Source: a virus
Direction: 5' to 3' (one strand)
Length of the DNA stretch: 38,618 bases
Virus genome (UHGV): UHGV-0392077
Shown here: positions 934 through 35,488 of the stretch, piece by piece
Position numbering within the stretch: position 1 is the first letter of the stretch
Layout: each line of letters begins with the position of its first letter
Translations under genes and position numbers: made by a program
Notes under the pieces: generated by a model
What the model was told of the DNA's origin: nothing
What the model saw: only the letters and a program-made list of their open reading frames with translations
The model's database searches: none

Positions 934-948
934 TTACCTTAAAGGTAT
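934..948. promoter_or_regulatory. operator-like palindrome TTACC-ttaaa-GGTAT (imperfect copy)
   Basis: Matches the dispersed TTACC-N5-GGTAA motif; lies 43 bp upstream of the int start. Confidence 0.4.
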
Positions 949-990
949 ACTCTCATACCGTCATGAAAATGGTTTCTATACGGGTGAATT

Positions 991-2241
991 GTGCTTACCG
1001 ATACAAAATTAAAAAACCTCAAGCCGCAGGACAAACTGTACAAGGTCTCCGATCGTGACGGGCTGTATGTAGCTGTGCTTACGTCAGGCACGGTCTCGTT
1101 TCGCTACGACTACCGTATCAACGGTCGCCGCGAAACGCTGGTAATCGGGCAGTATGGGCGTGACGGTATCAGCCTGGCAGAAGCGCGAGAAGAACTGATT
1201 GCTGCAAAGAAGCTGCTTAAAGCAGGCCAGTCACCGGCTGCGGCTAAACGTGACGGTATCAAAAAGATTCGTGGTGCCGAGACGTTTGCGGTACATACCG
1301 ACAGTTATATGAAACACGTCATCCTGGCTGACAGTACCCGCGCAATGAAACAGGCGGTGATCGACCGTGACATACTTCCGGTTCTTGGCAATAAAATGAT
1401 GGCTGAAATTACCACATCGATGGTTCGTGATTTGTGTGACCGGATTGTCGAACGCGGTGGCCGGGCAACAGCAGTGCAGGCCAGGGAGATCATCAGTAGC
1501 GTATACCGTCACGCCAATGACCGTGGTCATGGTTTGTTTAATCCTGCGGCTGACATTAAACCTTCGTCTATCGCCATATTTAAACCACGAGAGCGAACAC
1601 TGACACCAGAAGAAATTGGCCTGTTCTTCCGCACGCTGGATGCCATTGGTGCTATGGGCACTATGAAAATGGCTTTAAAACTGGTGCTTATCACTATGGT
1701 TCGTAAGGGCGAATTCACCAATGCAACGTGGGATGAAATAGATTTTAAAAAATGGACATGGACAATTCCTTCAGACCGCATGAAAGGAAGCCGGGCGCAC
1801 GTTATTTACCTGCCTAAACAGGCACAGGATATATTGGTCGGGTTGCAGATGTGCGCTGGTGGAAGTGAATATCTGGTTCCTGGTCGTTACAACTTCCGGA
1901 AGCCATTATCTAATGCCGCGCTGAACTCTCTGATCGACAGAACGGTGAAAATAATAAATGAAGATGGTGAGCATATTCAGGACTTCACCGTACACGATAT
2001 GCGCCGTACAGCCAGTACGTTGTTGCATGAGGCTGGTTATCCTTCAGACTGGATTGAAAAGGCTCTGGCACATGAGCAGAAAGGTGTGCGCGCCGTATAT
2101 AACAAAGCGGAATACGCCAGACAGCGCGCCTACATGTTGCAGCAGTGGGCCGATATGATTGATTCCTGGATTAACGGGGAGCATACGGATCTGATTCCGT
2201 TCTCCCCGTCGAAGTTTGAGAAGTGGATGGCGGGGGAATAA
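991..2241 (+). CDS. int: tyrosine integrase (P4-type, N-terminal arm-binding domain)
   Basis: 416 aa from GTG 991. N-terminus LYKVSDRDGLYVAV...VSFRYDYRINGRRETLVIGQYG resembles the P4-type integrase N-terminal domain; C-terminus carries the catalytic signature HDMRRTASTLLHEAGY...VRAVYNKAEY (H-x-x-R ... Y). Confidence 0.9.
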   Translation: MLTDTKLKNLKPQDKLYKVSDRDGLYVAVLTSGTVSFRYDYRINGRRETLVIGQYGRDGISLAEAREELIAAKKLLKAGQSPAAAKRDGIKKIRGAETFAVHTDSYMKHVILADSTRAMKQAVIDRDILPVLGNKMMAEITTSMVRDLCDRIVERGGRATAVQAREIISSVYRHANDRGHGLFNPAADIKPSSIAIFKPRERTLTPEEIGLFFRTLDAIGAMGTMKMALKLVLITMVRKGEFTNATWDEIDFKKWTWTIPSDRMKGSRAHVIYLPKQAQDILVGLQMCAGGSEYLVPGRYNFRKPLSNAALNSLIDRTVKIINEDGEHIQDFTVHDMRRTASTLLHEAGYPSDWIEKALAHEQKGVRAVYNKAEYARQRAYMLQQWADMIDSWINGEHTDLIPFSPSKFEKWMAGE

Positions 2242-2244
2242 CGT

Positions 2245-2439
2245 TTAATTATTCTGCTGATTTTCTTCCATCTCGGCTTCTGCTGCCAGTGATTCAATTT
2301 TGTCTGCGAATATTGCTGACAGCGTTGCAAATTCAGCATCAGTGACAGCGGGAATCGGAACAAACCTGATCCCGCTGTGTGCAAGCATGTTTGCAGTTTC
2401 AAGGCATTTCCTTAAATCTGCTGGTGATGCCCTGTTCAT
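2245..2439 (-). CDS. hypothetical small protein (64 aa)
   Basis: ATG at 2439 overlaps the stop of the upstream methyltransferase gene (ATGA overlap), suggesting translational coupling; convergent with int with a 3-nt gap. No recognisable motif. Confidence 0.4.
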   Translation of the reverse strand: MNRASPADLRKCLETANMLAHSGIRFVPIPAVTDAEFATLSAIFADKIESLAAEAEMEENQQNN

Positions 2440-3086
2440 GCTGCACGCTCCCGCCCCTGGTTGTCTGTTGGTGACAGCGGAGCATTGCTGAATGCATTTG
2501 TTAATCCGCCAATATCCAACGCGTATCCGGGGTGTAGTTGCACTGCCGGGTCTTCGCACTGATTACCCCAAACATCGAAGCCATGAGACGACTGGCGGGC
2601 GAACAGTTCAATGCGAGAAACATCGCCTAACAATTGCACAAGTTTTTCACGAACGACATCTGGTTTTCTTGAATGCTCAAGCCGCGGTGCCGTAAATGAC
2701 TGAACGATCCCTGCATTAATGCGCGGAGGTAGTTTTCCCTTTACTGCAAACAGGCAATCTTCACTATTGGCGCGAGTCATGTGACCCATACCCATAACCA
2801 GTTTATCTGGTTGTCGACTACCACATTTTATCCACGTGAATCCCTTCATGGTCATCAGACGGAACCCCCAGGCTTCAACAACTTTTAGTGCTTCGAGTGG
2901 TTGTGTTGGCACCCACCACATGGCCAACAGACAGTTTTCATCGGCCAAATCCCACACAGGAAGGCGGCAGATGTCCAGCACACTCATAACCGGATATTTA
3001 AAACCGGCACCGCGATTACCATCTGCGGCTTTGTCCCGGTATACCCAGGGTGGATCTGCATAGATTAGTGTGTATTTCTTAGTCAT
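2436..3086 (-). CDS. MT-A70 family DNA N6-adenine methyltransferase
   Basis: Contains YADPPWVY (the DPPW catalytic motif of MT-A70-type adenine methyltransferases). ATG at 3086 preferred over GTG at 3098. Confidence 0.8.
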   Translation of the reverse strand: MTKKYTLIYADPPWVYRDKAADGNRGAGFKYPVMSVLDICRLPVWDLADENCLLAMWWVPTQPLEALKVVEAWGFRLMTMKGFTWIKCGSRQPDKLVMGMGHMTRANSEDCLFAVKGKLPPRINAGIVQSFTAPRLEHSRKPDVVREKLVQLLGDVSRIELFARQSSHGFDVWGNQCEDPAVQLHPGYALDIGGLTNAFSNAPLSPTDNQGRERAA

Positions 3087-3378
3087 AAACCACCCCACAA
3101 CATCCTATGCCGCTATAGTCGCCACGGCGAAGGCCGTTACCTTTTGTGATACATTGGTCCCTGCGAACCGCGATCCTCGCACGCTCAACATCACCAGAAG
3201 CAACATCCATACACTGAAGCCAAAGGTGAGCGGCAATGCGGAACTGCCCTTTTTTCTCTCTTTCAATCGCGCGTTTTTCGATCTCTATCGCCGCAGGAGT
3301 AACGGCGACAATCTTTGACGGACTGCGCATTGAAACCTTGTTCATGTGATATTTTTCAAGTCGGCTTAACTTTTTCAC
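3079..3378 (-). CDS. hypothetical protein
   Basis: ORF with GTG start at 3378 (SD-like GAGGG upstream) or ATG at 3345; its stop overlaps the methyltransferase start. No recognisable motif. Confidence 0.45.
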   Translation of the reverse strand: MKKLSRLEKYHMNKVSMRSPSKIVAVTPAAIEIEKRAIEREKKGQFRIAAHLWLQCMDVASGDVERARIAVRRDQCITKGNGLRRGDYSGIGCCGVVYD

Positions 3379-3487
3379 TTAATCCAACCCTCTCTGAAAA
3401 TTAATGCCAGCAGATAAAGCCATGCTGAAACAGAGGCCAGGAATAAGTACCATCCTGACCATTTGCTCCAGTGCCTTAGCAGCACAC

Positions 3488-3736
3488 TCATGCAGCGTTG
3501 CTCACAGGACGATATACACGTTGCTGAACAGGAGGCTTTTTACCCTGGAACTCTGCCGGGCTTGCTGCCTGACGTTCATCAAGCCAACGCTCAACTTCAT
3601 CACGGTTCCATGCGCAGCGTTTGTCAGTGATATACCAGCGTTTAGGAAATTCCCCTGCGCGCTCCATGCGGTCGATAGTGCTCCATGACAGTGGCACCAC
3701 CGCCAGGAGTTCCTTCTTACCTAATGCACCTTTCAT
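3488..3736 (-). CDS. AlpA-family excisionase / transcriptional regulator
   Basis: 82 aa; LSWSTIDRMERAGEFPKRWYI...RCAWNRDEVERWL resembles AlpA/Xis-type winged-HTH proteins that partner P4-type integrases. SD GAGG 7 nt upstream of ATG 3736. Confidence 0.7.
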   Translation of the reverse strand: MKGALGKKELLAVVPLSWSTIDRMERAGEFPKRWYITDKRCAWNRDEVERWLDERQAASPAEFQGKKPPVQQRVYRPVSNAA

Positions 3737-3785
3737 AAATACCTCTCTTGGTTGCAGTGCGGCGCGCGTGGCGCCGCGGTGGTGG

Positions 3786-4703
3786 TTACATAGATGTTTC
3801 GTTTAATTCTTCCCGACGAACGCTGTAAACGTCGGTGGCTTTTGCCAGCAGTTCGTCATCATCTGAAAGTTTTTGTGCAATGTATTTGTAAGCTTTATCC
3901 AGTTCGGAGACAGTGCTGTAATTCATCGCTGCGCTGGTAAAGGCCATCAGCATTTCTTCTGGATCACGGCTATCCGCTTTACGCGTTTGCTCATCAGGCT
4001 TTTTCACTTGTTTAGCGTTGATCAGACTGTTCATGCTGGATGCTGTGCCGTGCTTTGCCTGACTTCTTGGAGTTACGTCACGTTCAATAATGTCAGGTGA
4101 GTCGATATATTTACCTTCCATTTCCTCAGCTGTGGCTTGTTGACCAATCTCCGGCCATGCTTTACGTAATGCCTGTGCCTCTGCGCATTTTGCCAACTGC
4201 GCATAAGGGCGCTTTTTCCACATGGCATTTGGTGCCGATGTGTCACGCCCCCCAGTTGCATAGTTCTCAATCCAGTATTCTTTGGCGCTAAACTCTACGA
4301 TTTCCCCGCTTGCCATTCGCTTGCTGACGGTGTACTTACACCACTGAGGGAAGGTAACCTCCACGCCTGAAAGCGTTTGTGTTACATCTGGACCGAACTC
4401 AGGTTCATTAGCGCCTGCGTAATCGCCGGAACGGTAGGCCTGAATGCGATAAAGTCCAATGCCAGGCATGACCACGTCGCGCCATTCATTCTTTCCACTC
4501 TTCGAGTCTTTAACACTCATTGGTACCAGGTGTACCGGCTTAAGAAGAGGATCGAGTTGACGCGCACGGCAGTAATCGACTGCCATCATTACCGATTCAT
4601 CTTTTGCCCCAGGGTAAATACTGTTTTTCAGAGCGCTCCATGTAACTTCATCGATTCCCCGAATAGCCAACACATCATTGGTGATTGCAATTTCGTTGCT
4701 CAT
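3786..4703 (-). CDS. recT: RecT/Redbeta-family single-strand annealing protein
   Basis: AMWKKRPYAQLAKCAEAQALRKAWPE fits the W..M..K.A...A.R.A.P pattern of the RecT family. ATG 4703 overlaps the stop of the upstream exonuclease gene (ATGA); the ORF track start at 4730 is probably an N-terminal over-extension. Confidence 0.7.
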   Translation of the reverse strand: MSNEIAITNDVLAIRGIDEVTWSALKNSIYPGAKDESVMMAVDYCRARQLDPLLKPVHLVPMSVKDSKSGKNEWRDVVMPGIGLYRIQAYRSGDYAGANEPEFGPDVTQTLSGVEVTFPQWCKYTVSKRMASGEIVEFSAKEYWIENYATGGRDTSAPNAMWKKRPYAQLAKCAEAQALRKAWPEIGQQATAEEMEGKYIDSPDIIERDVTPRSQAKHGTASSMNSLINAKQVKKPDEQTRKADSRDPEEMLMAFTSAAMNYSTVSELDKAYKYIAQKLSDDDELLAKATDVYSVRREELNETSM

Positions 4704-5521
4704 ACGTACATATCCTGTTTGCGTGCCCACTCAGGGCGTTTAATAATTTCCACGCCGCCCCATTCATCGCTGATGCGGCATTCGTGATAGGTATTCAGAT
4801 CCCGGCGGAACAGAGCGTGCCCGGCATCGACATCCGGCGCATCCAGCTCGAACACGCGTACTGGATACCGACCACAATCAATGCTTTCGCTCACGGCAAG
4901 AAAGAAAAAACCATGCGGCTGACCAGTAACCCTCATTGCGCCTTCGCGGTACATTGCGTCCTGCACGTGGTAGCGGAATTCCTCGATGTGGCGTGCAAAA
5001 CGGTCCATATCTGCAACCTTTTTCACGTCGACGATCACGTTGTGCTCGTTCAGCCATTTGTCTGGACGAATGCGGCACAACTCACCAGTATCTTCATCGT
5101 TCCAGTACATTGATGCTTCGCAGTAACCAGGTGCTTCCAGCATCCAGCGTGCCGCCGGGTGAGCCATTGCGCTATCACGCATCAGCTCCAGTTTCCGCCA
5201 CTGCTCGGCATCAAGTACCGTAATCCCCATATCCGCCACATCACGAAGAAATGCCTCTTCGTCAGCTTTACCTTGTTTCGTCCGACGTTCGAATTTCGGT
5301 GAAACAATGAAGCGTTTGTCGAACTCTCCAGGCTCCAGAAGCAGACAGTGCAATGCGGTTCCCATATCCAGTGCAGACTTTTTCTCTTCGTCTTCTGGTG
5401 CTGCCTGAACCCATTTAAGAAGCGCCGGATTCTTGGCAACCATGTCCAGTTGCGATTTACTCACGCCGTCACCGGCGTGGTAGTCTTCGTTGCTGATGTC
5501 GAAATAAATTCCCGCTTTCAT
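4700..5521 (-). CDS. RecE-like 5'-3' exonuclease (PD-(D/E)xK superfamily), partner of the annealase
   Basis: 273 aa; N-terminus GIYFDISNEDYHAGDGVSKSQL resembles RecE/exonuclease VIII-type domains; sits directly upstream of and is translationally coupled to the RecT-like gene. Confidence 0.6.
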   Translation of the reverse strand: MKAGIYFDISNEDYHAGDGVSKSQLDMVAKNPALLKWVQAAPEDEEKKSALDMGTALHCLLLEPGEFDKRFIVSPKFERRTKQGKADEEAFLRDVADMGITVLDAEQWRKLELMRDSAMAHPAARWMLEAPGYCEASMYWNDEDTGELCRIRPDKWLNEHNVIVDVKKVADMDRFARHIEEFRYHVQDAMYREGAMRVTGQPHGFFFLAVSESIDCGRYPVRVFELDAPDVDAGHALFRRDLNTYHECRISDEWGGVEIIKRPEWARKQDMYV

Positions 5522-5817
5522 GCCGCGTCCCTCTGCCCATCAATCTGATCAGCCAGATCCCAGCGGGCGATAATTGCCATTGCCTCGCGACGGTAGGCAT
5601 CCATCAGTTCTTCGAACTCAGGGCTGTCTTTAGCAGCCTCCAGTACTTCCTGACGAACGCCTTTGCCTGTTACAACGTCGAAAGTTGAGGACAGTTGATG
5701 AAGTCGGATGCTCTCAATCAGTTCAACTTGTCGGTCATATAGCTGTTCTGACAGGCGGTAGTCCTTGTCGAATGCCAGCATGATTTTTTGAAGATTTTTC
5801 TGCTGATTAACGTTCAT
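5518..5817 (-). CDS. hypothetical protein (99 aa), in the Gam-like position upstream of the exonuclease
   Basis: ATG at 5817 preceded by GGGAGGG; stop overlaps the exonuclease start. No recognisable motif. Confidence 0.5.
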   Translation of the reverse strand: MNVNQQKNLQKIMLAFDKDYRLSEQLYDRQVELIESIRLHQLSSTFDVVTGKGVRQEVLEAAKDSPEFEELMDAYRREAMAIIARWDLADQIDGQRDAA

Positions 5818-5819
5818 TA

Positions 5820-5972: not shown

Positions 5973-5991
5973 AACTTGTTACCTCGGTCTG

Positions 5992-6006
5992 TTACCGTTG
6001 AGGTAA
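5992..6006. promoter_or_regulatory. operator-like palindrome TTACC-gttga-GGTAA
   Basis: Perfect half-sites; between the leftward promoter candidate and the first leftward ORF. Confidence 0.5.
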
Positions 6007-6034
6007 TGATTATGCGTATCTGGTTTGATGTCAA
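6007..6034 (-). promoter_or_regulatory. candidate leftward early promoter (PL-like)
   Basis: Minus strand reads TTGACA (6034..6029) followed by CATAAT-like -10 (6014..6009); spacer is only about 14-16 nt, so exact hexamers are uncertain. Flanked by two operator palindromes. Confidence 0.35.
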
Positions 6035-6053
6035 TAGATATGAGTTAAAAAAA

Positions 6054-6068
6054 TTACCCATAAGGTAA
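6054..6068. promoter_or_regulatory. operator-like palindrome ATTACC-cataa-GGTAAT
   Basis: Perfect 17-bp palindrome (6053-6069). Confidence 0.5.
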
Positions 6069-6079
6069 TCGCATAGGCA

Positions 6080-6105
6080 ATAAAAAAGCCGCCATGAGGC
6101 GGCTT
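6080..6105 (-). terminator. rho-independent terminator of the repressor gene
   Basis: Minus strand: AGCCGCC-TCAT-GGCGGCT followed by TTTTTTATT. Confidence 0.6.
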
Positions 6106-6125
6106 ACTTACTGAAAAATATGATT

Positions 6126-6710
6126 TTATTGTTTGCTTTTTTCGTTCTGGTTGATGACAAATTCAATGTAACTTTCGATCTTTGCCTTCTCTGTTTCAGG
6201 TAACAATGCGTAGCGCGAGCGATCATAGTTGATAGTCGCAGGGTCGTGCGGGTGAATCAGTAATTCATAGCCGTGACGCCCGAATGCGGATGCAACATTC
6301 TCCAGGGTGGAAATGGAAACGCTGACTTCATTGTTTAACAGGCGGCTGATTGTCACCTGGGCGACGCCGGATGCGCGGTGAAGTTTTCCCTGTGTTGAAA
6401 GGTCGCGGCTTTCGCTCATCCAGCGTTCCAGGTTGTGAGCCGCCAGCTGACCAATGTCGCTTGGGCCGACAGGCTGAAACCCCTCCTGAGAAAGCGAGCG
6501 ATCGATATCAAGCCAGTTACGGGGTTTATTGGCGGCAGCTTCAATTTTTCGCGCAACCTGGTCGCCGATAACCTTCTTGCCAAGAGCCCAGCGGTTTACC
6601 AGATTTGCCTGAGTTCCAAGTTTTTCTGCCATCCGCGTCTGAACACCATTGAATTCACGGTCGATCAAGTCGTTGAGATTTTGCCTGCGGACGTCCTGGA
6701 TACTTTTCAT
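6126..6710 (-). CDS. phage repressor (CI-like), two HTH-like segments, no S24 peptidase domain
   Basis: 194 aa; HTH-like segments GVQTRMAEKLGTQANLVNRWALGKK and GVAQVTISRLLNNE; no Ser/Lys autoprotease signature. Divergent from the Cro-like gene across an operator cluster. Confidence 0.65.
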   Translation of the reverse strand: MKSIQDVRRQNLNDLIDREFNGVQTRMAEKLGTQANLVNRWALGKKVIGDQVARKIEAAANKPRNWLDIDRSLSQEGFQPVGPSDIGQLAAHNLERWMSESRDLSTQGKLHRASGVAQVTISRLLNNEVSVSISTLENVASAFGRHGYELLIHPHDPATINYDRSRYALLPETEKAKIESYIEFVINQNEKSKQ

Positions 6711-6765: not shown

Positions 6766-6780
6766 TTACCCAACAGGTAA
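6766..6780. promoter_or_regulatory. operator-like palindrome TTACC-caaca-GGTAA (site 1 of the divergent-promoter cluster)
   Basis: Perfect half-sites in the repressor/cro intergenic region. Confidence 0.55.
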
Positions 6781-6782
6781 AT

Positions 6783-6797
6783 GCACCTCATAGGTAA
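6783..6797. promoter_or_regulatory. operator-like variant GCACC-tcata-GGTAA (site 2)
   Basis: Right half-site perfect, left half degenerate; a near-identical GCACC-tcaaa-GGTAA occurs at 7151-7165. Confidence 0.4.
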
Positions 6798-6803
6798 CTA
6801 TCC

Positions 6804-6835
6804 TTGATTTTTGTTACCTTATGGGTGAATATTTA
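6804..6835 (+). promoter_or_regulatory. candidate rightward early promoter (PR-like)
   Basis: TTGATT at 6804-6809, then an A/T-rich -10 candidate around 6828-6835; operator site 3 lies in the spacer. Confidence 0.35.
6814..6828. promoter_or_regulatory. operator-like palindrome TTACC-ttatg-GGTGA (site 3)
   Basis: Same TTACCTTAnnGGTGAAT variant as the site at 9115-9129. Confidence 0.5.
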
Positions 6836-6864: not shown

Positions 6865-7095
6865 ATGAGCGATAACGGACATTTCGATTTCAAAAAGCAC
6901 TGGCTTGCACTTACTCCGGATGAGCGTGAAGCCTTCGCACAGGAAGCCGGAACGACGAGTCACTATATCCAGACTCACTTAACAGGTAAGCGCAAAATGC
7001 CAGGTAAAGTATTGATGAATGGGCTTTTTAAAGCCTGTAAAACAAGACAATGGCTGCGCTCAAAAGCAGAACTGGCATACTTCTTCTACTCATGA
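6865..7095 (+). CDS. Cro-like HTH DNA-binding protein (putative)
   Basis: 76 aa, first gene of the rightward operon, divergent from the repressor; segment EREAFAQEAGTTSHYIQTHLTGKR is HTH-like. Confidence 0.5.
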   Translation: MSDNGHFDFKKHWLALTPDEREAFAQEAGTTSHYIQTHLTGKRKMPGKVLMNGLFKACKTRQWLRSKAELAYFFYS

Positions 7096-7116: not shown

Positions 7117-7142
7117 AGACCGCCACCTGGCGGTCTTTTCAT
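7117..7142 (+). terminator. rho-independent terminator after the Cro-like gene (tR1-like)
   Basis: AGACCGCC-ACCT-GGCGGTCT followed by TTTTC. Confidence 0.5.
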
Positions 7143-7150: not shown

Positions 7151-7165
7151 GCACCTCAAAGGTAA
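7151..7165. promoter_or_regulatory. operator-like variant GCACC-tcaaa-GGTAA
   Basis: Near-identical to the variant at 6783-6797; immediately downstream of the terminator. Confidence 0.35.
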
Positions 7166-7243
7166 TAAAAAACCAAATCTGGTTGATCAAATTTTCCAAT
7201 TGTGCAAAATATCCAATATCAATAACAAAAAGGGGCGGAAAAA

Positions 7244-7456
7244 TTGAAGATAGTAACCAGAATGGAGGCCGCAAAAGCCGGGTTAAATCGCTATTTCACA
7301 GGAAAGCGGTGCCGTCACGGCCATCTCTCTGAAAGGTATGTTCTGAACGGAACATGTGTTGAATGTGCAATGAATAGCGCCAACCGCCATCGTAATGAAT
7401 TTGCTTGTGCACTAAAGAGTGCAAGAGGGGAAACCTATGGCAAGCAGCTGGATTAA
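7244..7456 (+). CDS. small Cys/His-rich (zinc-ribbon-like) protein
   Basis: 70 aa from TTG 7244 (AGGGG upstream); contains C-x-H-G-H ... C-x-E-C. Confidence 0.4.
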   Translation: MKIVTRMEAAKAGLNRYFTGKRCRHGHLSERYVLNGTCVECAMNSANRHRNEFACALKSARGETYGKQLD

Positions 7457-9015: not shown

Positions 9016-9052
9016 TACCAGCGCGATAGCGCATTTTTTTACGTCTCAACAA

Positions 9053-9067
9053 TTACCTATCAGGTAA
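9053..9067. promoter_or_regulatory. operator-like palindrome ATTACC-tatca-GGTAAT
   Basis: Perfect 17-bp palindrome in the 117-bp gap after the P-like gene. Confidence 0.5.
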
Positions 9068-9114
9068 TAAAATATTCTAAACTCTATTGATTTCGTGTCT
9101 TATGTGGTTTTTAA

Positions 9115-9129
9115 TTACCTTAGAGGTGA
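9115..9129. promoter_or_regulatory. operator-like palindrome TTACC-ttaga-GGTGA
   Basis: Overlaps the SD region 4 nt upstream of ATG 9133. Confidence 0.45.
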
Positions 9130-13205: not shown

Positions 13206-13231
13206 GCCGCCAACTATGGCGGCTTTATTTT
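13206..13231 (+). terminator. rho-independent terminator immediately upstream of the terminase genes
   Basis: GCCGCC-AACTAT-GGCGGC followed by TTTATTTT. Confidence 0.6.
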
Positions 13232-13242
13232 GCATGGTACTA

Positions 13243-13257
13243 TTACCACAACGGTAA
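13243..13257. promoter_or_regulatory. operator-like palindrome TTACC-acaac-GGTAA (plus imperfect TTACC-acggt-GGTTA at 13261-13275)
   Basis: Between the terminator and the terminase small-subunit start. Confidence 0.5.
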
Positions 13258-13274
13258 CAATTACCACGGTGGTT

Positions 13275-13871
13275 ATGATGCCTGCTGAACCTAAAACCTA
13301 TAAACGCAAATCAACGCAATTTAAGCCGCTCACAGCAATGCAGGAGGCTTATTGCCAGTCATACATCAAAACGCCTGAAAACCAGACTCAGGCAGCGATT
13401 AACGCAGGATTCTCCCCAAATACAGCGGCAGTTAAAGCCAGTGTCATGATGCGCGATGAACGCATTCAAAAACGGATTGCCGAGCTGATGGAAGAGCGCA
13501 ACAAACGAATGCGCGTCAGTGCCGATTACGTTCTCATGCGCCTGGTGGAGATCGACCAGATGGACGTGATTGATATCCTCAACGACGATGGGAGCCTTAA
13601 GCCAATCCGCGAGTGGCCGAAAATCTGGCGCACTACGCTTAGTGGCTTTGATCTGTCATCGACCATCATGAACATGAACGAGGATTCGATAGAGACAATC
13701 CTCAAAAAAATTAAATGGCCTGACAAGGTGAAGAACCTCGAACTGATTGGTAAGCACGTCGACGTCAACGCATTCAAAGAACGCCTGGATGTTAATGTGA
13801 ATGTGACAATTGCTGATCGCATAGCGGCAGCCAGGAAGCGACTCAAAGAACGTCAGGATGGTAATCAGTGA
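13275..13871 (+). CDS. terS: terminase small subunit
   Basis: LTAMQEAYCQSYIKTPENQTQAAINAGFSPNTAAVKASVMMRDERIQKRIAELMEER matches the HTH-containing small-terminase pattern (Terminase_2/P27-like, as recalled). Start moved to ATG 13275 because the ORF-track N-terminus translates the terminator and operator. Confidence 0.7.
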   Translation: MMPAEPKTYKRKSTQFKPLTAMQEAYCQSYIKTPENQTQAAINAGFSPNTAAVKASVMMRDERIQKRIAELMEERNKRMRVSADYVLMRLVEIDQMDVIDILNDDGSLKPIREWPKIWRTTLSGFDLSSTIMNMNEDSIETILKKIKWPDKVKNLELIGKHVDVNAFKERLDVNVNVTIADRIAAARKRLKERQDGNQ

Positions 13872-15819: not shown

Positions 15820-15843
15820 AAAAAAATGCCCGGCGAACCGGGC
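15820..15843 (-). terminator. hairpin plus T-run immediately upstream of the moron gene (possible attenuator)
   Basis: Minus strand GCCCGG-TTCG-CCGGGC followed by ATTTTTTT, only about 12 nt before the gene's ATG. Confidence 0.35.
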
Positions 15844-15919
15844 GAACTGGAAGCAATGAGTTATGCCTTCCGTGGCTGTACTGGTTTACAGCATGAAGTC
15901 ATCGCAATGGCGTCCTGCT

Positions 15920-15963
15920 GTAAAAAGGGCGGTGATAGTCCTTCAAGGGAAACCATCACCGCC
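15920..15963 (-). terminator. candidate terminator downstream of the tRNA
   Basis: 9-bp stem GGCGGTGAT/ATCACCGCC with an 18-nt loop, followed on the minus strand by CTTTTTA. The loop is large, so confidence is low. Confidence 0.3.
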
Positions 15964-16006
15964 AAGCACCTGGAACTTCTGGCATCACGGTCCTTAGGCG
16001 TGATTC

Positions 16007-16083
16007 TGGCGTGGCATGCAGGATTCGAACCTGCGACCAACCGCTTAGAAGGCGGTTGCTCTGTCCAGCTGAGCTAATGCCAC
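16007..16083 (-). tRNA. tRNA-Arg(UCU): tRNA-Arg (anticodon UCU), argU-like, CCA encoded
   Basis: Minus strand folds by hand into a cloverleaf: acceptor GTGGCAT/ATGCCAC, D-arm GCTC...GAGC, anticodon stem ACCGC/GCGGT with loop CTTCTAA (anticodon TCT), T-arm GCAGG-TTCGAAT-CCTGC, discriminator G plus CCA. Resembles E. coli argU as recalled. Confidence 0.8.
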
Positions 16084-16405: not shown

Positions 16406-16420
16406 TTACCTGAAAGGTAA
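16406..16420. promoter_or_regulatory. operator-like palindrome TTACC-tgaaa-GGTAA
   Basis: In the non-coding region upstream of the portal operon; the flanking GGTAATAATTTG is repeated again at about 16478. Confidence 0.5.
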
Positions 16421-16510
16421 TAATTTGTGCGTTAAATGTCAACTATCTAAAATAAATAAATCATATGTGGTTAAATTGGTAATAATTTGATTGCGTACGG
16501 AGTCATTGAT

Positions 16511-30016: not shown

Positions 30017-30021
30017 ATTAA

Positions 30022-32496: not shown

Positions 32497-32504
32497 AAGG
32501 AGAT

Positions 32505-32630
32505 ATGATGGTTCAAATAACTTTTATTGTACTAATATGTGCAGCGTTTTTATGCTATTCATACATTTTGATAAAAATGGGTTTCAATTGGAACCTCTGT
32601 TGCGTGCAGCGGCATGGTTCGGCTTTGTAG
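32505..32630 (+). CDS. small hydrophobic peptide (about 40 aa), uncertain
   Basis: AAGGAG at 32497-32502 then ATGATG; hand translation MMVQITFIVLICAAFLCYSYILIKMGFNWNLCCVQRHGSAL*. An alternative frame (32480..32668) also encodes a TM segment. Confidence 0.3.
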   Translation: MMVQITFIVLICAAFLCYSYILIKMGFNWNLCCVQRHGSAL

Positions 32631-32715
32631 TATTCGGAATTGTATTGTTCGGAAGAATAATAAAATAACTAGTTAATTTGTGGATTGGTGCTGTTTTTCC
32701 ATGATAGGGGTAATT

Positions 32716-33096
32716 ATGAGAAAAGTATTTTTGATTTTTGGATTTATGCTTCTCGTTGGATGCCAGTCAGCTGCACAGTTTGAAAGAAATATGCTTACGT
32801 GGCGTGGGCAGAGTATAGACGCAATGGTTCAGCAGTGGGGGTATCCTCAGGGAGAGCTTACATCTCCAGATGGAAACAGAGTGTATGTTTACTCAAGCTC
32901 TGGTAGTTATAACGTACCACAAACCACAACGTATAATACTACGTCTAATCTAATTGGTAATACTATATATTCAAACACATATGCAACAACTGATGGCGGT
33001 TATACACTCCATTTCAGTTGCTCTGTTTACGTTGAGTTTGGTGCTGATAAGATTATTAAAAATGTTACATGGCGCGGTAATAATTGCGTTGCGTGA
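32716..33096 (+). CDS. lipoprotein (moron; possible superinfection-exclusion factor)
   Basis: Signal peptide MRKVFLIFGFMLLVGC with lipobox LVG|C; AGGGG 6 nt upstream of ATG 32716; conspicuously AT-rich compared with its flanks. Confidence 0.65.
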   Translation: MRKVFLIFGFMLLVGCQSAAQFERNMLTWRGQSIDAMVQQWGYPQGELTSPDGNRVYVYSSSGSYNVPQTTTYNTTSNLIGNTIYSNTYATTDGGYTLHFSCSVYVEFGADKIIKNVTWRGNNCVA

Positions 33097-33104
33097 CATG
33101 TCAC
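33093..33104. repeat. perfect 12-bp palindrome GTGACATGTCAC (copy 3 of 3)
   Basis: Exact string; contains the TGA stop of the lipoprotein gene and abuts the terminator hairpin. Confidence 0.9.
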
Positions 33105-33130
33105 AGGCCGCTTTCGCGGCCTTGTTTTTA
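33105..33130 (+). terminator. rho-independent terminator of the lipoprotein gene
   Basis: AGGCCGC-TTTC-GCGGCCT followed by TGTTTTT. Confidence 0.6.
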
Positions 33131-33169
33131 ACGAATGCCACCGCCGCCCGGGCGGGAATCCGCAGACAC

Positions 33170-33190
33170 AAAAAAGCCCGCGGCGCGGGC
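33170..33190 (-). terminator. terminator of the minus-strand antirepressor operon
   Basis: GC-rich hairpin GCCCG-CGGCG-CGGGC with TTTTT on the minus strand, directly after the stop at 33191. Confidence 0.5.
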
Positions 33191-33739
33191 TTACTTTTCT
33201 TCAGGTTTGTTGTCTTCAGATTTCTTCTTGATGCTTGGTTTTTGTCTAAGAACGAAAATACCAGCCACTGCAACAACTGTACCGATCACTGTGCCTGCTA
33301 GAACTTCATGACCTGTTAAACCTAATAATGTTGCACAAGCTACTGTAAAAATAGTTGCACTCAGGCCAAACCACTGCCCACGTTTATCTCTATTAATAGC
33401 CCCGTCAAGTGCCTTTTCCTCCATTTTCTGGCGGTGAGCAAACTCCTTCTCCGTCAGCTGGAAGATGCGTTCGGGGGCATCAGGTAAAATATCCTGATAC
33501 CCGCGAAGCAGATAAGGGGGAGGAAGCGGACCCTGAAACGCATGGTGAGCGACAACTATCTCCTGAATTTCAGGGCGATCAAGAACTCTTGTGAAGGCAT
33601 CTGGGTGTTGAATGATCTCGTTACTTAGCCCTTCCTCAACTTCCTCGAACTCAGTTTCTTCGTTATCACTTGGTTGCCCAATAGATTTTTGCATATTTGT
33701 CGAAGGACATTCCTTTAGCTTCTGGTTTTCCTCTTGCAT
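33191..33739 (-). CDS. hypothetical membrane protein (possible superinfection-exclusion protein)
   Basis: Acidic N-terminal region and two C-terminal TM helices (WFGLSATIFTVACATLLGL; VLAGTVIGTVVAVAGIFVL). The true start may be the internal ATG at 33694. Confidence 0.5.
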   Translation of the reverse strand: MQEENQKLKECPSTNMQKSIGQPSDNEETEFEEVEEGLSNEIIQHPDAFTRVLDRPEIQEIVVAHHAFQGPLPPPYLLRGYQDILPDAPERIFQLTEKEFAHRQKMEEKALDGAINRDKRGQWFGLSATIFTVACATLLGLTGHEVLAGTVIGTVVAVAGIFVLRQKPSIKKKSEDNKPEEK

Positions 33740-33992
33740 TTGAGTTTTTCCCTGTCACTATTGCCCATTTTCCGCCAGCAGGCGCTGCAATTTTTTTTCC
33801 GTTCTTTACTATATATTCAGCATAAACACGATTTTCTGACCGTCTGAGATCGTCTCCGACCATATTCATGTCTCTTGATATAACTTTGACGACAGAGTCT
33901 CGGTTTAAAGCCTTGGCATAGTTGGAGCCAGGAACGATACCCAAAGGGGTGCCAGACTCTATAGCCAGCTCCTTGACATATCTTCTGCTCAT
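33666..33992 (-). CDS. hypothetical protein (108 aa)
   Basis: ATG 33992 with GAGGT 5 nt upstream; overlaps the start of the downstream membrane-protein gene; operator site lies just upstream. Confidence 0.4.
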   Translation of the reverse strand: MSRRYVKELAIESGTPLGIVPGSNYAKALNRDSVVKVISRDMNMVGDDLRRSENRVYAEYIVKNGKKIAAPAGGKWAIVTGKNSNARGKPEAKGMSFDKYAKIYWATK

Positions 33993-34013
33993 ATGAACCT
34001 CAACCAATCGACT

Positions 34014-34028
34014 TTACCAATCGGGTAA
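34014..34028. promoter_or_regulatory. operator-like palindrome TTACC-aatcg-GGTAA
   Basis: Perfect half-sites between ant and the 108-aa gene. Confidence 0.5.
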
Positions 34029-34113
34029 TTTTAAACATGAGTATAATGCTTTTAACTGCAACGAGTGTAAACAATTATTGATAATTGTAGGCACATCCAT
34101 GTGCCGCCGCCCG

Positions 34114-34824
34114 TCAGAAGAACCCAGCCTTGTCGTTGATGTACTCCGCGTGTGTCTGGATATCACGCAGGCATTTGCTCACACCGACGATGTAGCAGAA
34201 CATGGTGGTCAGCTCCGCCGCCGCGCCCGATACGTCGTGCCCGTCTTCCTGTAACTGGTTCAGCAGATTCATCAGCAGTGAGTGCTCCGTCAGGCCGAGA
34301 ACACCAGACGGCGAATGAATCAGGCTACGGTAGCCGGGCTTCAGTGGGGCACTGTAGGTTTTGTTCTCTATCTTCATTGCCTGCATTACTGCTGACGCCG
34401 TGGCGTTGGCTACCTGGTCGGCAACCATCTTTATGCGTTCTTCCTGCGGTAGCGAGTTTTTAATGTAACTTCCGGTGCGGCGGATCTGAGGAAGAACCTC
34501 ACCTGTAACCCATTTGCGAAAGCGGTAGGGGATAGTGCCTGGTGTCACTGCGTCGCGGCAGCGGAGGATCAGTGTGTAGAGGCCTGACTCGGAGATGATG
34601 TTGATCTCTTTTACTCGGCTATCAAAAATTGCACGATGTTCATGCCCTATGTTGAACATAGACCTTTCATCATCATCCAGTTTTTCAAGTGCTTGGGTGA
34701 CGTTTTGGATACGCAGCGCACTACAAACGTCTTGGGCTACAAACCATGGTTGGCCATCGATAATGATGGAACGGATAGGGTTAACAGATTCAAATTTGAA
34801 GATGGCAGTTTGAGCATTAGCCAT
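34114..34824 (-). CDS. ant: antirepressor, Bro-N domain (Ant-like)
   Basis: N-terminus FKFESVNPIRSIIIDGQPWFVAQDVCSALRIQNVTQALEKLDDDE matches the Bro-N / P22 Ant-type domain. ATG 34824 with GGAG upstream. The C-terminal domain is paralogous to gene 35140..35397. Confidence 0.7.
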   Translation of the reverse strand: MANAQTAIFKFESVNPIRSIIIDGQPWFVAQDVCSALRIQNVTQALEKLDDDERSMFNIGHEHRAIFDSRVKEINIISESGLYTLILRCRDAVTPGTIPYRFRKWVTGEVLPQIRRTGSYIKNSLPQEERIKMVADQVANATASAVMQAMKIENKTYSAPLKPGYRSLIHSPSGVLGLTEHSLLMNLLNQLQEDGHDVSGAAAELTTMFCYIVGVSKCLRDIQTHAEYINDKAGFF

Positions 34825-34842
34825 GGTGGTTATCTCCACTTA

Positions 34843-34856
34843 GTGATTTTAATCAC
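34843..34856. promoter_or_regulatory. 14-bp palindrome GTGATTTTAATCAC upstream of ant (candidate operator)
   Basis: Perfect inverted repeat GTGATT/AATCAC, 19 bp upstream of the ant start codon; distinct from the TTACC-N5-GGTAA family. Confidence 0.4.
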
Positions 34857-34979
34857 CACCGCAACGCCAATTACTGGTGGTGAACTGGACAAGGTTGGCG
34901 TACCGGCCTAAGTGGTACCGGCGTCCTTTCGGACCCCTGCCCAGCCCACCATAATTCGGATATGGCTGTGCTTAACGCA

Positions 34980-35003
34980 TAAAAAAACCACGTCTGGCGT
35001 GGT
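34980..35003 (-). terminator. rho-independent terminator after the small LexA-boxed gene
   Basis: Minus strand ACCACG-CCAGA-CGTGGT followed by TTTTTTT. Confidence 0.6.
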
Positions 35004-35093
35004 ATGCGCCACTTAGTAACTCGGGACGCCAATCCCGGCACTGGATTTTGCCAGTACCCGATTACTATGGCACAAGAGGAGTGCGATGTAAAT

Positions 35094-35108
35094 TTACCGC
35101 AAAGGTAA
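35094..35108. promoter_or_regulatory. operator-like palindrome TTACC-gcaaa-GGTAA
   Basis: Between the stop of the small gene and its terminator. Confidence 0.5.
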
Positions 35109-35139
35109 ATATAAGCACTCCACTTGGTAATTGCAAACC

Positions 35140-35397
35140 TTATCTGGTTTGTTTTCGTAATTGTTCGGCACAATAGTCGAGATGTGTTTGCAGATCCTGC
35201 ATAGACATCTGTGAGCTGGTGACGTAGTTAATCAGTGCAGTCAGTTCGGCAAGTGGGCCATCGACATTAAATCCATCCTTATCGAGATCCCGGAGTAATT
35301 TCATCAAGTGCGATCCCTCCACTAGTGATCTGACGCCTCCCGGCGTGTGAATCCTTTCGGTAAATCCGTCTTCCAGTGGATAGTGATACTGCTGCAT
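35140..35397 (-). CDS. small protein (85 aa) paralogous to the Ant C-terminal domain; candidate SOS-inducible antirepressor
   Basis: Aligns by eye with the Ant C-terminus (IHTPGGVRSLVEGSHLMKLLRDLDKDGFNVDGPLAELT...DLQTHLDY versus IHSPSGVLGLTEHSLLMNLLNQLQEDGHDVSGAAAELT...DIQTHAEY). Start set at ATG 35397 because the ORF-track extension to 35520 translates the LexA box. Confidence 0.55.
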   Translation of the reverse strand: MQQYHYPLEDGFTERIHTPGGVRSLVEGSHLMKLLRDLDKDGFNVDGPLAELTALINYVTSSQMSMQDLQTHLDYCAEQLRKQTR

Positions 35398-35416
35398 CTT
35401 ATCTTCTCCATGCAAT

Positions 35417-35436
35417 AACTGTATATTTATACAGTA
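35417..35436. promoter_or_regulatory. LexA (SOS) box
   Basis: AACTGTATATTTATACAGTA is CTGT-N8-ACAG with an AT-rich core, close to the E. coli consensus TACTGTATATATATACAGTA; 22 nt upstream of the small gene's ATG. Confidence 0.7.
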
Positions 35437-35473
35437 GCAAATAATTTGTTTGCTATCCAGCACGTTTTGCAAA

Positions 35474-35488
35474 TTACCCGAAAGGTAA
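35474..35488. promoter_or_regulatory. operator-like palindrome ATTACC-cgaaa-GGTAAT
   Basis: Perfect 17-bp palindrome between the LexA-boxed promoter and the tailspike gene. Confidence 0.5.

What the first reader, a model, noticed from the sequence alone, without database searches (positions are those of the whole stretch)
934..35488. Genome-wide dispersed palindrome TTACC-N5-GGTAA at 12 or more intergenic sites (stoperator-like network?)
Reading the intergenic regions by eye I find the same 15-17 bp palindrome, often the full ATTACC-N5-GGTAAT, at 934, 5992, 6054, 6766, 6814, 9053, 9115, 13243, 16406, 34014, 35094 and 35474, with degenerate GCACC-TCAnA-GGTAA variants at 6783 and 7151. All copies I found are intergenic; I did not scan coding sequence exhaustively. 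By my estimate a 10-specified-base palindrome should occur well under once in 38.6 kb, so this is strongly non-random. Sites precede early units (int, PL-like, PR-like, the nin-like operon) and also late or accessory units (terminase, portal region, antirepressor block, tailspike). One regulator, most simply the dual-HTH repressor, may therefore hold down many transcription units, as described for dispersed repressor sites in mycobacteriophage L5. A late-gene activator site or a partition-like site are alternatives.
Basis: partly seen in the sequence, partly recalled or inferred. Interest (0 to 1): 0.8.

Follow-up and report, generated by a model that had tools for sequence, protein, structure and literature searches.

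The report
Prophage repressor operators scattered across genome
The repeated palindrome is real and is most likely the binding site of this epsilon15/phiV10-type phage's repressor, placed at the start of nearly every transcription unit; the same sites are already annotated as repressor sites in the GenBank record of phage epsilon15, so it is a sound but largely known finding.

Summary
TTACC-N5-GGTAA occurs 9 times exactly (0.02 expected) and 15 times with at most one mismatch (0.67 expected). All 9 exact sites and 13 of the 15 lie in the 6.7% of the window that is non-coding.

The window is a Uetakevirus (epsilon15/phiV10-like temperate podophage). Seven relatives from E. coli, Salmonella and Enterobacter carry the same palindrome at syntenic places. 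The half-sites stay fixed while the central five bases vary.

The epsilon15 GenBank record already annotates seven of these sites as 'protein_bind: repressor'. The window's 194-aa regulator is a full-length homologue of the tetrameric SPC32H Rep (PDB 5D50).

In the window, several sites abut or sit inside sigma-70-like promoters: PL, PR, the nin-like operon, terS and the Bro-antirepressor module. Many of these follow a terminator. This fits operators that occlude promoters, not L5-type stoperators.

Paired sites at PL and the nin operon are always 62 bp apart, about six helical turns. That suggests a tetramer bridging the two sites.

Direct binding was not tested here, and the primary papers could not be read. 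The site before int (934) is ambiguous, because it lies inside a stable hairpin.

Verdict: real, non-random and functional, but already known in this phage group.

The parts
934..948 (.). Variant site TTACCTTAAAGGTAT, 43 bp before the int start (991). Assignment as an operator is ambiguous.
   Evidence: One mismatch. The GGTAT variant is conserved in all 8 genomes. It lies between GTGACG (925-930) and TATACT (946-951). It is also nested in a hairpin of -16.1 kcal/mol, z = -3.75. The epsilon15 record labels that region as RNase III and integrase sites, not repressor.
5992..6006 (.). OL proximal operator, abutting the -10 of the leftward early promoter
   Evidence: Exact site. The promoter-like match TTGACA-17-AATCAT at 6034..6006 (- strand) ends on the first base of the site. 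This architecture is conserved in 8 genomes and 2 distant relatives.
6054..6068 (.). OL distal operator, 62 bp from the proximal one and just after the rep terminator
   Evidence: Exact site. Terminator at 6105..6086 on the - strand. The 62-bp spacing is found in every relative examined except the Serratia locus, where it is 75 bp.
6126..6710 (-). Rep, the prophage repressor (194 aa)
   Evidence: phmmer against PDB 5D50 (SPC32H Rep): E = 3.5e-42 over residues 1-190. Pfam HTH_3 hit. The stretch N36-L37-V38-N39-R40-W41, which I take to be the recognition helix, is invariant across the 7 aligned Uetakevirus sequences, which go down to 43% identity; only N36, R40 and W41 stay invariant once more distant homologues are added.
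6766..6828 (.). OR cluster between rep and the Cro-like gene: 6766-6780 (exact), 6783-6797 (GCACC, two mismatches), 6814-6828 (GGTGA, one mismatch)
   Evidence: The three-site layout (17 + 30-31 bp) is conserved in both phage lineages. The third site lies between the conserved -35 TTGATT (6804-6809) and -10-like hexamers.
6865..7095 (+). gp39-like 76-aa protein, a Cro-position candidate that could share the operators
   Evidence: It is transcribed divergently from rep. It is 76-100% identical across the genus, with an invariant stretch GTTSHYIQTHLT that I take to be helix-turn-helix-like. No Pfam hit. It co-occurs with Rep in the distant relatives.
7151..7165 (.). Degenerate site GCACCTCAAAGGTAA after the terminator that follows the Cro-like gene, ahead of the replication operon
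   Evidence: Two mismatches. Terminator at 7117-7136. The syntenic copy is GTACC...GGTAA in ZX5, phiV10 and Tyrion.
9053..9067 (.). Distal operator of the nin-like operon, directly after a terminator (9020-9040)
   Evidence: Exact site. Conserved block AATTACC-N5-GGTAAYAAAAT in all 8 genomes. Coordinates.
9115..9129 (.). Proximal operator of the nin-like operon, fused to the -10 and overlapping the ribosome-binding site of the DUF1064 gene (ATG 9133)
   Evidence: One mismatch. TTGATT (9087-9092)-17-TTTAAT (9110-9115) ends on the first base of the site. It lies 62 bp from 9053 in all 8 genomes.
13243..13275 (.). Tandem operators before terS (13243-13257 exact; 13261-13275 one mismatch)
   Evidence: Terminator at 13206-13223. 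The extended -10-like TGGTACTAT (13235-13243) ends on the first base of the first site, and this is conserved across genomes. The epsilon15 copy is annotated as a repressor site.
16406..16420 (.). Operator in the 433-bp gap before the portal operon
   Evidence: Exact site. The epsilon15 copy is annotated as a repressor site. An invariant TGTCAA (= TTGACA on the - strand) lies 17 bp away at 16437-16442. tRNA-Arg lies leftward at 16007-16083 (-).
34014..34028 (.). Operator fused to a leftward -10, ahead of two hypothetical genes (34007..33191)
   Evidence: Exact site. The promoter-like match TTAAAA-16-TAAAAT at 34055..34028 (- strand) ends on the site. ZX5 has the same site.
35094..35108 (.). 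Operator fused to a leftward -10, ahead of the isrK-like RNA, the C4-like RNA and the Bro-N antirepressor gene
   Evidence: Exact site. TTGCAA-17-TATATT at 35136..35108 (- strand). Rfam isrK at 34981-35057 and C4 at 34873-34956, both - strand. Bro-N domain gene at 34114-34824.
35474..35488 (.). Operator in the divergent region between the small Ant gene and the tailspike gene
   Evidence: Exact site. An invariant block in 8 genomes. Annotated as a repressor site in epsilon15. It lies upstream of both inferred core promoters.
35419..35434 (.). LexA box CTGTATATTTATACAG overlapping the inferred ant promoter -10
   Evidence: Exact CTGT-N8-ACAG match. Conserved in 8 genomes. Inferred promoter TGGATA-17-TACTGT at 35459..35431, - strand.
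35140..35397 (-). Small antirepressor Ant (85 aa)
   Evidence: 88% identical to SPC32H Ant.

Best explanation
The palindrome (consensus A-TTACC-T-n-W-n-A-GGTAA-T) is the operator of the prophage repressor Rep (6126..6710). Rep belongs to the epsilon15 gp38 / SPC32H Rep family.

Copies sit at the head of almost every transcription unit, typically just after the terminator of the preceding unit.
- In the commonest layout, the last base of a -10-like hexamer is the first T of the site (TAnAAT|TACC). This applies at PL, the nin-like operon, terS, 34014 and 35094. Bound Rep would then cover the start site and block RNA polymerase.
- At PR and possibly P_int, the site fills the -35/-10 spacer.
- At PL and the nin-like operon, a second operator lies exactly 62 bp upstream, about six helical turns. 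SPC32H Rep is reported to be a tetramer. A tetramer could hold both sites and enclose the promoter in a small loop.

In a lysogen, one protein would therefore silence the early-left, early-right, replication, nin-like, packaging, portal, tailspike and accessory units directly. Induction would follow the SPC32H scheme: SOS inactivation of LexA frees the ant promoter, and Ant removes Rep from DNA.

Shown here: the sites, their statistics, their synteny, their overlap with promoter-like sequence, and the homology of Rep and Ant.

Inferred: that Rep binds these sites, the occlusion geometry and the looping.
For: - Enrichment and intergenic bias.
- The same palindrome sits at syntenic positions in 8 Uetakevirus genomes, with variable central bases. 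In the alignments of these regions the half-sites are among the few invariant blocks outside the promoter, terminator and leader elements.
- The epsilon15 record annotates seven such sites as 'protein_bind repressor / lysogeny'.
- The densest clusters flank rep on both sides.
- Rep is a full-length homologue of SPC32H Rep (PDB 5D50, E = 3.5e-42). Its putative recognition helix is conserved at 43% overall identity.
- SPC32H Rep binds palindromic DNA as a tetramer and carries a tetramerisation domain linked to DNA looping in a related regulator (PMC9638917; PMC9986798).
- Promoter-like hexamers abut or enclose the sites.
- The 62-bp spacing recurs in 165 site pairs across all fetched loci.
- Rep homologues of 52-59% identity in Serratia and E. 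coli prophages are still flanked by TTACC-N5-GGTAA.
- The recurrent half-site variant TCACC/GGTGA is never matched by the compensating change in the other half in the 8 genomes scanned. This argues against selection for a hairpin.
- Overexpressing the identical ZX5 repressor cut holin and endolysin transcripts by more than 99.9% (PMC9782041).
- Ant is 88% identical to SPC32H Ant and sits behind a perfect LexA box.
Against: - No binding experiment was available to me. The papers that would show which DNA Rep binds (Kropinski 2007; Kim & Ryu 2013; Kim 2016) are not held.
- The Cro-position protein gp39 always co-occurs with Rep, has an invariant putative helix-turn-helix and could be the binder or a co-binder.
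- The operator does not change when the Rep recognition helix varies (NLVNRW, NLVSRW, NLISRW). There is therefore no covariation proof.
- All promoters are consensus matches only, and the window as a whole has fewer promoter-like matches than its shuffles.
- The 35474 site overlaps neither inferred core promoter.
- Site 934 may be part of an RNA hairpin.
- The window has no site before its lysis genes, although relatives do.
Confidence: 0.8

Rival explanations
1. The palindrome is mainly the site of the Cro-position protein gp39 (6865..7095). Alternatively it is shared by gp39 and Rep, as lambda CI and Cro share operators. In that case the dispersed copies would serve to turn transcription units down during lytic growth as well as in lysogeny.
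For: - gp39 is far better conserved than Rep: 76% against 43% between the two lineages.
- It has an invariant helix-turn-helix-like stretch, which would match an invariant half-site.
- It co-occurs with the motif in every relative examined, including Serratia.
Against: - In the Serratia relative, the putative gp39 recognition stretch is heavily substituted (TAKYIMVHTQ against TSHYIQTHLT), yet the operator is unchanged.
- gp39 has no Pfam DNA-binding match.
- The epsilon15 record assigns the sites to the repressor.
- A second conserved dyad motif is available as an alternative gp39 target.
Confidence: 0.3
2. The sites act as L5-type stoperators. Repressor bound inside transcribed regions would block elongating RNA polymerase rather than initiation.
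For: - Some copies lie downstream of the likely start site or close to the start codon: 13261, 9115, and epsilon15 32479.
- Many sit immediately after terminators, so they could stop read-through from the upstream unit.
- Total silencing of a prophage by one repressor is the same outcome.
Against: - The sites are symmetric, so they cannot be orientation-specific.
- Five are fused to a -10-like hexamer and two lie in a promoter spacer.
- There are only about 15 per genome.
- None lies within the long late operon from 16.7 to 32.5 kb.
- The terminators already present would make a roadblock redundant.
Confidence: 0.1
3. The palindromes are RNA or DNA hairpin elements, such as processing sites or terminator-like structures, rather than protein-binding sites.
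For: - Each palindrome can form a 5-7 bp stem of -3.6 to -6 kcal/mol.
- The 934 copy is embedded in a hairpin of -16.1 kcal/mol, and the epsilon15 record marks that region as an RNase III site.
Against: - The stems are weak.
- The half-site sequence itself is invariant, rather than only the pairing.
- The variants (TCACC, GCACC, GTACC, GGTAT, GGTTA) are never compensated in the sites examined.
- Several sites lie upstream of, or across, the predicted start and would not be fully transcribed.
Confidence: 0.05
4. The sites bind a late-gene activator or a partition (ParB-like) protein.
For: - Copies precede terS, the portal region and the tailspike gene.
- Distal copies lie roughly 57 to 70 bp upstream of inferred start sites, a distance at which activators can act.
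Against: - The densest clusters are at the immunity region and early promoters, overlapping -10/+1.
- The phage integrates through an integrase.
- The annotated relatives list no ParA or ParB genes.
- The PerC-like and AlpA-like regulators lie in the early-left operon and have no link to the sites.
Confidence: 0.04

Closest known systems
Repressor-binding sites annotated in Salmonella phage epsilon15 (GenBank AY150271.2; Kropinski et al. 2007, paper not readable here)
   Same: The same 15-17 bp palindrome at the same syntenic places: before terS, before the portal operon, before the tailspike gene, left of the repressor gene and before the nin-like operon. All are labelled 'protein_bind: repressor, lysogeny'.
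   Different: - The record annotates 7 sites and leaves several unmarked: the OR cluster, the second nin site, the pre-lysis site and the pre-int site.
- The window belongs to the phiV10/ZX5 lineage, whose records carry no operator annotation.
- Its Rep is only about 43% identical to epsilon15 gp38.
- It has two extra sites in a Bro-antirepressor module that epsilon15 lacks.
SPC32H Rep-Ant lytic switch (Kim & Ryu 2013; Kim et al. 2016; PDB 5D50/5D4Z)
   Same: - Rep is homologous over its full length.
- Ant is 88% identical.
- A LexA box lies at the ant promoter.
- SPC32H carries the same palindromes.
- Rep is reported to be a tetramer that binds palindromic sites.
   Different: - I could not establish which operators were tested experimentally.
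- Secondary sources describe the repression mechanism as not extensively characterised.
- The genome-wide distribution and the 62-bp pairing are my own observations from sequence.
Phage P1 C1 repressor and its many dispersed operators, including the immI (c4-icd-ant) operon (from my own knowledge)
   Same: One immunity repressor with operators scattered round the genome, controlling many separate operons. The window has a C4-like RNA plus an antirepressor module behind one of the sites.
   Different: P1 operators are asymmetric 17-mers, and C1 is unrelated to Rep. P1 late genes are controlled indirectly through the Lpa activator, whereas here sites sit directly at terS, portal and tailspike.
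Mycobacteriophage L5 gp71 stoperators (from my own knowledge)
   Same: Many repressor sites in short intergenic gaps across both early and late regions, giving global silencing by one protein.
   Different: L5 sites are asymmetric 13-mers, orientation-dependent, about 30 per genome, and act on elongation. The sites here are palindromes, about 15 per genome, mostly overlapping promoter-like sequence.
Streptomyces phage phiC31 conserved inverted repeats bound by the c repressor; IncP plasmid KorA/KorB operators (from my own knowledge)
   Same: A palindromic operator repeated at many promoters, bound by an oligomerising repressor, sometimes cooperatively.
   Different: The proteins and hosts are unrelated. 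The phiC31 repeats are confined to early genes.

Membership tests
Uetakevirus (epsilon15 / SPC32H-type) Rep operator set | The palindrome ATTACC-N5-GGTAAT is identical to the sites annotated as repressor-binding in epsilon15 | tested here: met
   The annotated epsilon15 sites at 12, 2932, 19896, 32479, 32555, 32617 and 35907 are all TTACC-N5-GGTAA. The logo from 155 distinct sites is A-TTACC-TnWnA-GGTAA-T.
Uetakevirus (epsilon15 / SPC32H-type) Rep operator set | A Rep homologue is encoded between the OL and OR clusters | tested here: met
   The 6126..6710 protein against PDB 5D50 gives E = 3.5e-42 over its full length. Alignment with 6 genus members.
Uetakevirus (epsilon15 / SPC32H-type) Rep operator set | Sites occupy the same syntenic intergenic positions across the genus | tested here: met
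   8 genomes scanned; alignments of the regions.
Uetakevirus (epsilon15 / SPC32H-type) Rep operator set | Rep physically binds these sites and represses the adjacent promoters | not testable with these tools
   There is only indirect support: the annotation, the reported tetramer binding to palindromic DNA and the effect of repressor overexpression on late transcripts in ZX5. The primary papers are not held.
Uetakevirus (epsilon15 / SPC32H-type) Rep operator set | A LexA-controlled small antirepressor is the induction route | tested here: met
   The Ant homologue is 88% identical. A perfect LexA box at 35419-35434 is conserved in 8 genomes. LexA control itself is inferred from SPC32H.
Mycobacteriophage L5-type stoperators | An asymmetric site whose orientation relative to transcription matters | tested here: not met
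   The site is a perfect 5-N5-5 palindrome.
Mycobacteriophage L5-type stoperators | Sites lie within transcribed regions away from promoters and act on elongation | tested here: inconclusive
   Five sites are fused to -10-like hexamers and two lie in promoter spacers. The promoters are predictions only. A few copies (13261, 9115) would lie in the 5' leader.
Mycobacteriophage L5-type stoperators | Roughly 25-30 sites spread through both genome arms, including within late operons | tested here: not met
   There are 13 intergenic sites plus 2 degenerate ones, and none lies in the 16.7-32.5 kb late operon.
P1 C1-type dispersed operator network | One immunity repressor with operators at many separate operons | tested here: met
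   Sites lie in 10 of 17 intergenic gaps. The repressor assignment is inferred.
P1 C1-type dispersed operator network | An asymmetric 17-bp operator and a C1-family repressor | tested here: not met
   The operator is a palindrome. Rep is an HTH_3 / 5D50-type protein.
Partition (parS/ParB) sites | A cognate ParA/ParB locus and an extrachromosomal prophage | tested here: not met
   No such genes appear in the annotated relatives ZX5 and phiV10. An integrase and attP are present. Not every window ORF was scanned.
Late-gene activator sites | Sites restricted to late promoters and placed upstream of the core promoter | tested here: not met
   Seven of the 15 sites cluster at the immunity and early region. 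Several overlap -10/+1.

The most novel reading that the evidence does not exclude
The Rep tetramer would work through a fixed micro-loop. The strictly conserved 62-bp operator pairs at PL and the nin-like operon, about six helical turns apart with the core promoter between them, would be bridged by one tetramer. The same protein would also directly repress sigma-70-type promoters of the packaging, portal, tailspike and lysis units. The whole lytic programme would then be released in one step, without a dedicated late activator. A second conserved dyad (CCATAT-R-TGGTT, 45-57 bp from several operators) would be the target of a second regulator, perhaps gp39, which sets timing. As far as I could read, neither the loop geometry nor the second motif is annotated or described.
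Probability: 0.3. Interest if true: 0.5.

Novelty: already known. Interest (0 to 1): 0.25.

Why it matters
The result shows that a by-eye motif call was accurate, and it gives a site-by-site regulatory map for a very common group of E. coli prophages; the first 80 loci returned for its Rep were 99-100% identical. The biological idea, one repressor with operators at nearly every transcription unit, is already recorded in the epsilon15 annotation. The repressor/antirepressor pair has solved structures. The value here is therefore confirmatory. It would gain interest if three points held up experimentally: the 62-bp pairing, direct repression of late operons, and the second dyad motif. Together they would describe a compact whole-genome silencing scheme that differs from the lambda cascade.

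Tried and rejected
- **Primary papers.** I tried to read Kropinski 2007, Kim & Ryu 2013 and Kim 2016 by PMC id and DOI. None is held. Full-text searches for the consensus string and for epsilon15/SPC32H operators found no paper describing the sites.
- **Covariation test.** I looked for Rep homologues with altered recognition helices and asked whether their operators change. The viral-contig scan returned only 99-100% identical loci. Homologues of 52-59% identity from Serratia and E. coli still carry TTACC-N5-GGTAA. The test is therefore uninformative. It also cannot separate Rep from gp39, which always co-occurs.
- **Hairpin reading.** Isolated stems are weak and the variants are uncompensated. 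I rejected this reading except as a caveat for site 934.
- **Stoperator, activator and partition readings.** Rejected on symmetry, position and gene content.
- **Second motif.** ATATRTGGTT is not significantly enriched in the window alone: 8 matches against 3.96 expected, and 7 of 100 shuffles reach 8. It is absent from the PL spacer of distant relatives. I kept it only as a side observation supported by synteny.
- **Promoter calls.** I could not assign a convincing core promoter that overlaps the 35474 or 16406 sites.

Full report
**What the window is.** The immunity region is 97-98% identical to Escherichia phages vB_EcoP_ZX5, TL-2011b, HEMP4 and phiV10. The rest of the window matches the same phages. 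These are Uetakeviruses, that is, temperate podophages of the epsilon15/phiV10 type. The gene order runs: lysis genes, int, early-left (recombination) genes, rep, a Cro-position gene, replication genes, a nin-like block, terminase, portal and structural genes, an antirepressor block, tailspike, lysis genes. The window is therefore essentially a whole genome opened inside the endolysin gene.

**Check of the observation.**
- TTACC-N5-GGTAA occurs 9 times exactly, against 0.02 expected from dinucleotide-preserving shuffles.
- It occurs 15 times with at most one mismatch, against 0.67 expected.
The two GCACC variants at 6783 and 7151 exist as two-mismatch sites.
Their number is what chance predicts.
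- I built a gene map from homology to annotated relatives and checked it for start and stop codons. It leaves 6.7% of the window non-coding.
- All 9 exact sites and 13 of the 15 sites fall in that fraction (P = 2.6e-11 and 4.8e-14). Ten of the 17 intergenic gaps of at least 30 bp carry a site.

**Evidence from relatives.**
- I fetched epsilon15, ZX5, SPC32H, phiV10, Tyrion, PAT1 and BUCT554. Each has 8-11 exact sites and 14-19 sites with at most one mismatch.
- The sites are syntenic:
  - one GGTAT variant before int;
  - a pair 62 bp apart between rep and the early-left genes;
  - a three-site cluster between rep and the Cro-position gene;
  - a pair 62 bp apart before the nin-like operon;
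  - a tandem 18-20 bp apart before terS;
  - one before the portal operon;
  - one between ant and the tailspike gene;
  - one before the lysis cassette (absent from the window and ZX5).
- Alignments of these regions show the half-sites as invariant blocks, while the central five bases differ between phages. The other conserved blocks are terminators, promoter-like hexamers and 5' leader elements.
- A logo from 155 distinct exact sites reads A-TTACC-T-n-W-n-A-GGTAA-T.
- The epsilon15 GenBank record annotates seven of these sites as 'protein_bind, repressor, lysogeny'. I checked that they are this palindrome. I recall a published consensus ATTACCWDWWNGGTAAT from the epsilon15 genome paper, but I could not retrieve that paper.

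**The likely binder.**
- The 194-aa product of 6126..6710 aligns over its full length with the SPC32H repressor of PDB 5D50 (E = 3.5e-42).
- Across seven genus members, identity falls to 43%, yet the stretch N-L-V-N-R-W, which I take to be the recognition helix, is invariant.
- Secondary sources report that SPC32H Rep binds palindromic DNA as a tetramer and that the small Ant protein removes it from DNA.
- They also report that its C-terminal tetramerisation domain resembles one that induces DNA looping in pLS20 Rco. The repression mechanism itself is described as not extensively characterised.
- The window has the matching Ant gene (88% identity). A perfect LexA box, conserved in all eight genomes, lies just upstream of it.
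- In ZX5, whose repressor the authors describe as identical in sequence to that of phiV10, overexpression cut holin and endolysin transcripts by more than 99.9%.

**Anatomy in the window.** Many sites follow a rho-independent terminator. The terminators are at 845-868, 6105-6086 (- strand), 7117-7136, 9020-9040 and 13206-13223.
- At five sites, the final base of a -10-like hexamer is the first T of the site:
  - PL: TTGACA-17-AATCAT at 6034..6006;
  - nin-like operon: TTGATT-17-TTTAAT at 9087..9115;
  - terS: the extended -10-like TGGTACTAT at 13235-13243;
  - 34014: TAAAAT;
  - 35094: TATATT.
- At PR, the third OR site fills the spacer after a conserved TTGATT.
- PL and the nin-like promoter share the context CTATTGA and a distal operator exactly 62 bp upstream. 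They look like paralogous modules.
- The 62-bp spacing recurs in 165 site pairs over all fetched loci. It also holds in two distant E. coli relatives.
- All these promoters are consensus matches, not mapped start sites.

**Most likely mechanism.** Rep binds the palindromes and occludes the promoters at the head of each unit. The upstream terminators insulate each unit from read-through. At PL and the nin-like operon, one tetramer may bridge the two in-phase sites. Because sites also sit at terS, the portal region and the tailspike gene (and at the lysis cassette in relatives), late functions appear to be repressed directly and not only through a cascade. Induction would run from LexA through Ant to Rep, as in SPC32H. 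Binding, occlusion and looping are all inferences.

**Weak points.**
- Site 934 lies inside a hairpin of -16.1 kcal/mol. The epsilon15 record marks that region as RNase III and integrase sites.
- Site 35474 lies upstream of both inferred core promoters: TGGATA-17-TACTGT for ant and TCCATA-17-TAGAAT for the tailspike gene.
- Site 16406 has only an oddly spaced TTGACA nearby.
- The window lacks the pre-lysis site.

**Rivals.**
- **gp39.** The Cro-position protein gp39 is 76-100% conserved, has an invariant helix-turn-helix-like stretch and always co-occurs with Rep. It may share the sites or be their main binder. In a Serratia relative its putative recognition stretch is heavily substituted while the operator is unchanged, which weakens but does not exclude this.
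- **Stoperators.** The sites fail the defining features of asymmetry and site number, and mostly coincide with promoters.
- **Hairpins.** This reading fails because the sequence, not the pairing, is conserved. Variants such as TCACC, GCACC and GGTAT are never compensated.
- **Activator or partition sites.** Neither fits the positions or the gene content.

**Comparison and novelty.** This is the same element as the annotated epsilon15 repressor sites, and it belongs to the SPC32H Rep-Ant system. By function it resembles the P1 C1 multi-operator network, the phiC31 conserved inverted repeats and the KorA/KorB operators more than the L5 stoperators; those comparisons rest on my own knowledge. I rate it already known. 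The parts I did not find recorded are the strict 62-bp pairing, the recurrent fusion of the -10 to the operator, the extra sites in the Bro/C4 module and a second conserved dyad.

**Dead ends.**
- The primary papers could not be read.
- The literature searches were unproductive.
- The covariation test was uninformative.
- The second motif is not enriched in the window alone.

Noticed in passing
window 16462-16472, 35518-35528, 9099-9109; weaker at 7174-7184 and 6015-6025; L005 24736-24749: A second conserved motif, CATAT(G/A)TGGTT, lies 45-57 bp from several operators: portal, tailspike, the nin-like operon and (in relatives) the lysis leader. In some phages it is a full dyad, AACCATATATGGTT. 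It lies in or next to promoter-like spacers. The epsilon15 record does not annotate it. It is not enriched in the window alone (8 against 3.96 expected), but it is syntenically conserved in 8 genomes. It could be the site of a second regulator (gp39 or the gp40-like protein) or a 5' leader element.
   Followed up: partly
window 34873-34956 (-) and 34981-35057 (-): Rfam finds a C4 antisense RNA (66 bits) and an isrK-like Hfq-binding RNA (63.5 bits). Both lie between the operator at 35094 and the Bro-N antirepressor gene (34114-34824). A terminator-like hairpin at 35003-34987 overlaps the isrK-like match (34981-35057). This resembles the P1 immI (c4-ant) arrangement. The phage would then have two antirepressor modules.
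   Followed up: partly
window 35419-35434: A perfect LexA box, CTGTATATTTATACAG, overlaps the inferred -10 (TACTGT) of the small ant gene. It is conserved in all 8 genomes. This matches the LexA-controlled Ant switch reported for SPC32H.
   Followed up: partly
window 16007-16083 (-): A tRNA-Arg(UCU) gene lies in the gap before the portal operon. It overlaps, on the opposite strand, the ORF 15826-16077 that phiV10 annotates as a protein (p04). An invariant TTGACA on the - strand next to operator 16406 could drive it, which would place the tRNA under repressor control.
   Followed up: no
window 37417-37493; compare L005 24692, L002 24704: The window and ZX5 lack the operator that precedes the lysis cassette in phiV10, epsilon15, SPC32H, Tyrion, PAT1 and BUCT554. 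In the window the tailspike gene is followed directly by the lysis genes, with no O-antigen acetylase gene between them.
   Followed up: partly
L089, L090, L091 (Serratia and E. coli prophages); alignments A2 and A4: Rep proteins only 42-59% identical, from different hosts, keep the same operator half-sites. Immunity specificity between these phages therefore may not lie in operator recognition. It may lie instead in the Rep-Ant interaction.
   Followed up: no
window 7244-7456 (+): The gp40-like 70-aa protein has a C-x-H-x-H ... C-x-x-C pattern (CRHGH...CVEC). This suggests a small zinc-binding protein. It has no Pfam hit. It is the first gene after the post-Cro terminator and degenerate operator, so it is a candidate regulator.
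   Followed up: no
window 35518-35554: ATATGTGGTT and its near reverse complement AACCAGATAT flank the inferred tailspike -10 (TAGAAT, 35539-35544). Together they form a larger inverted repeat around that promoter.
   Followed up: no
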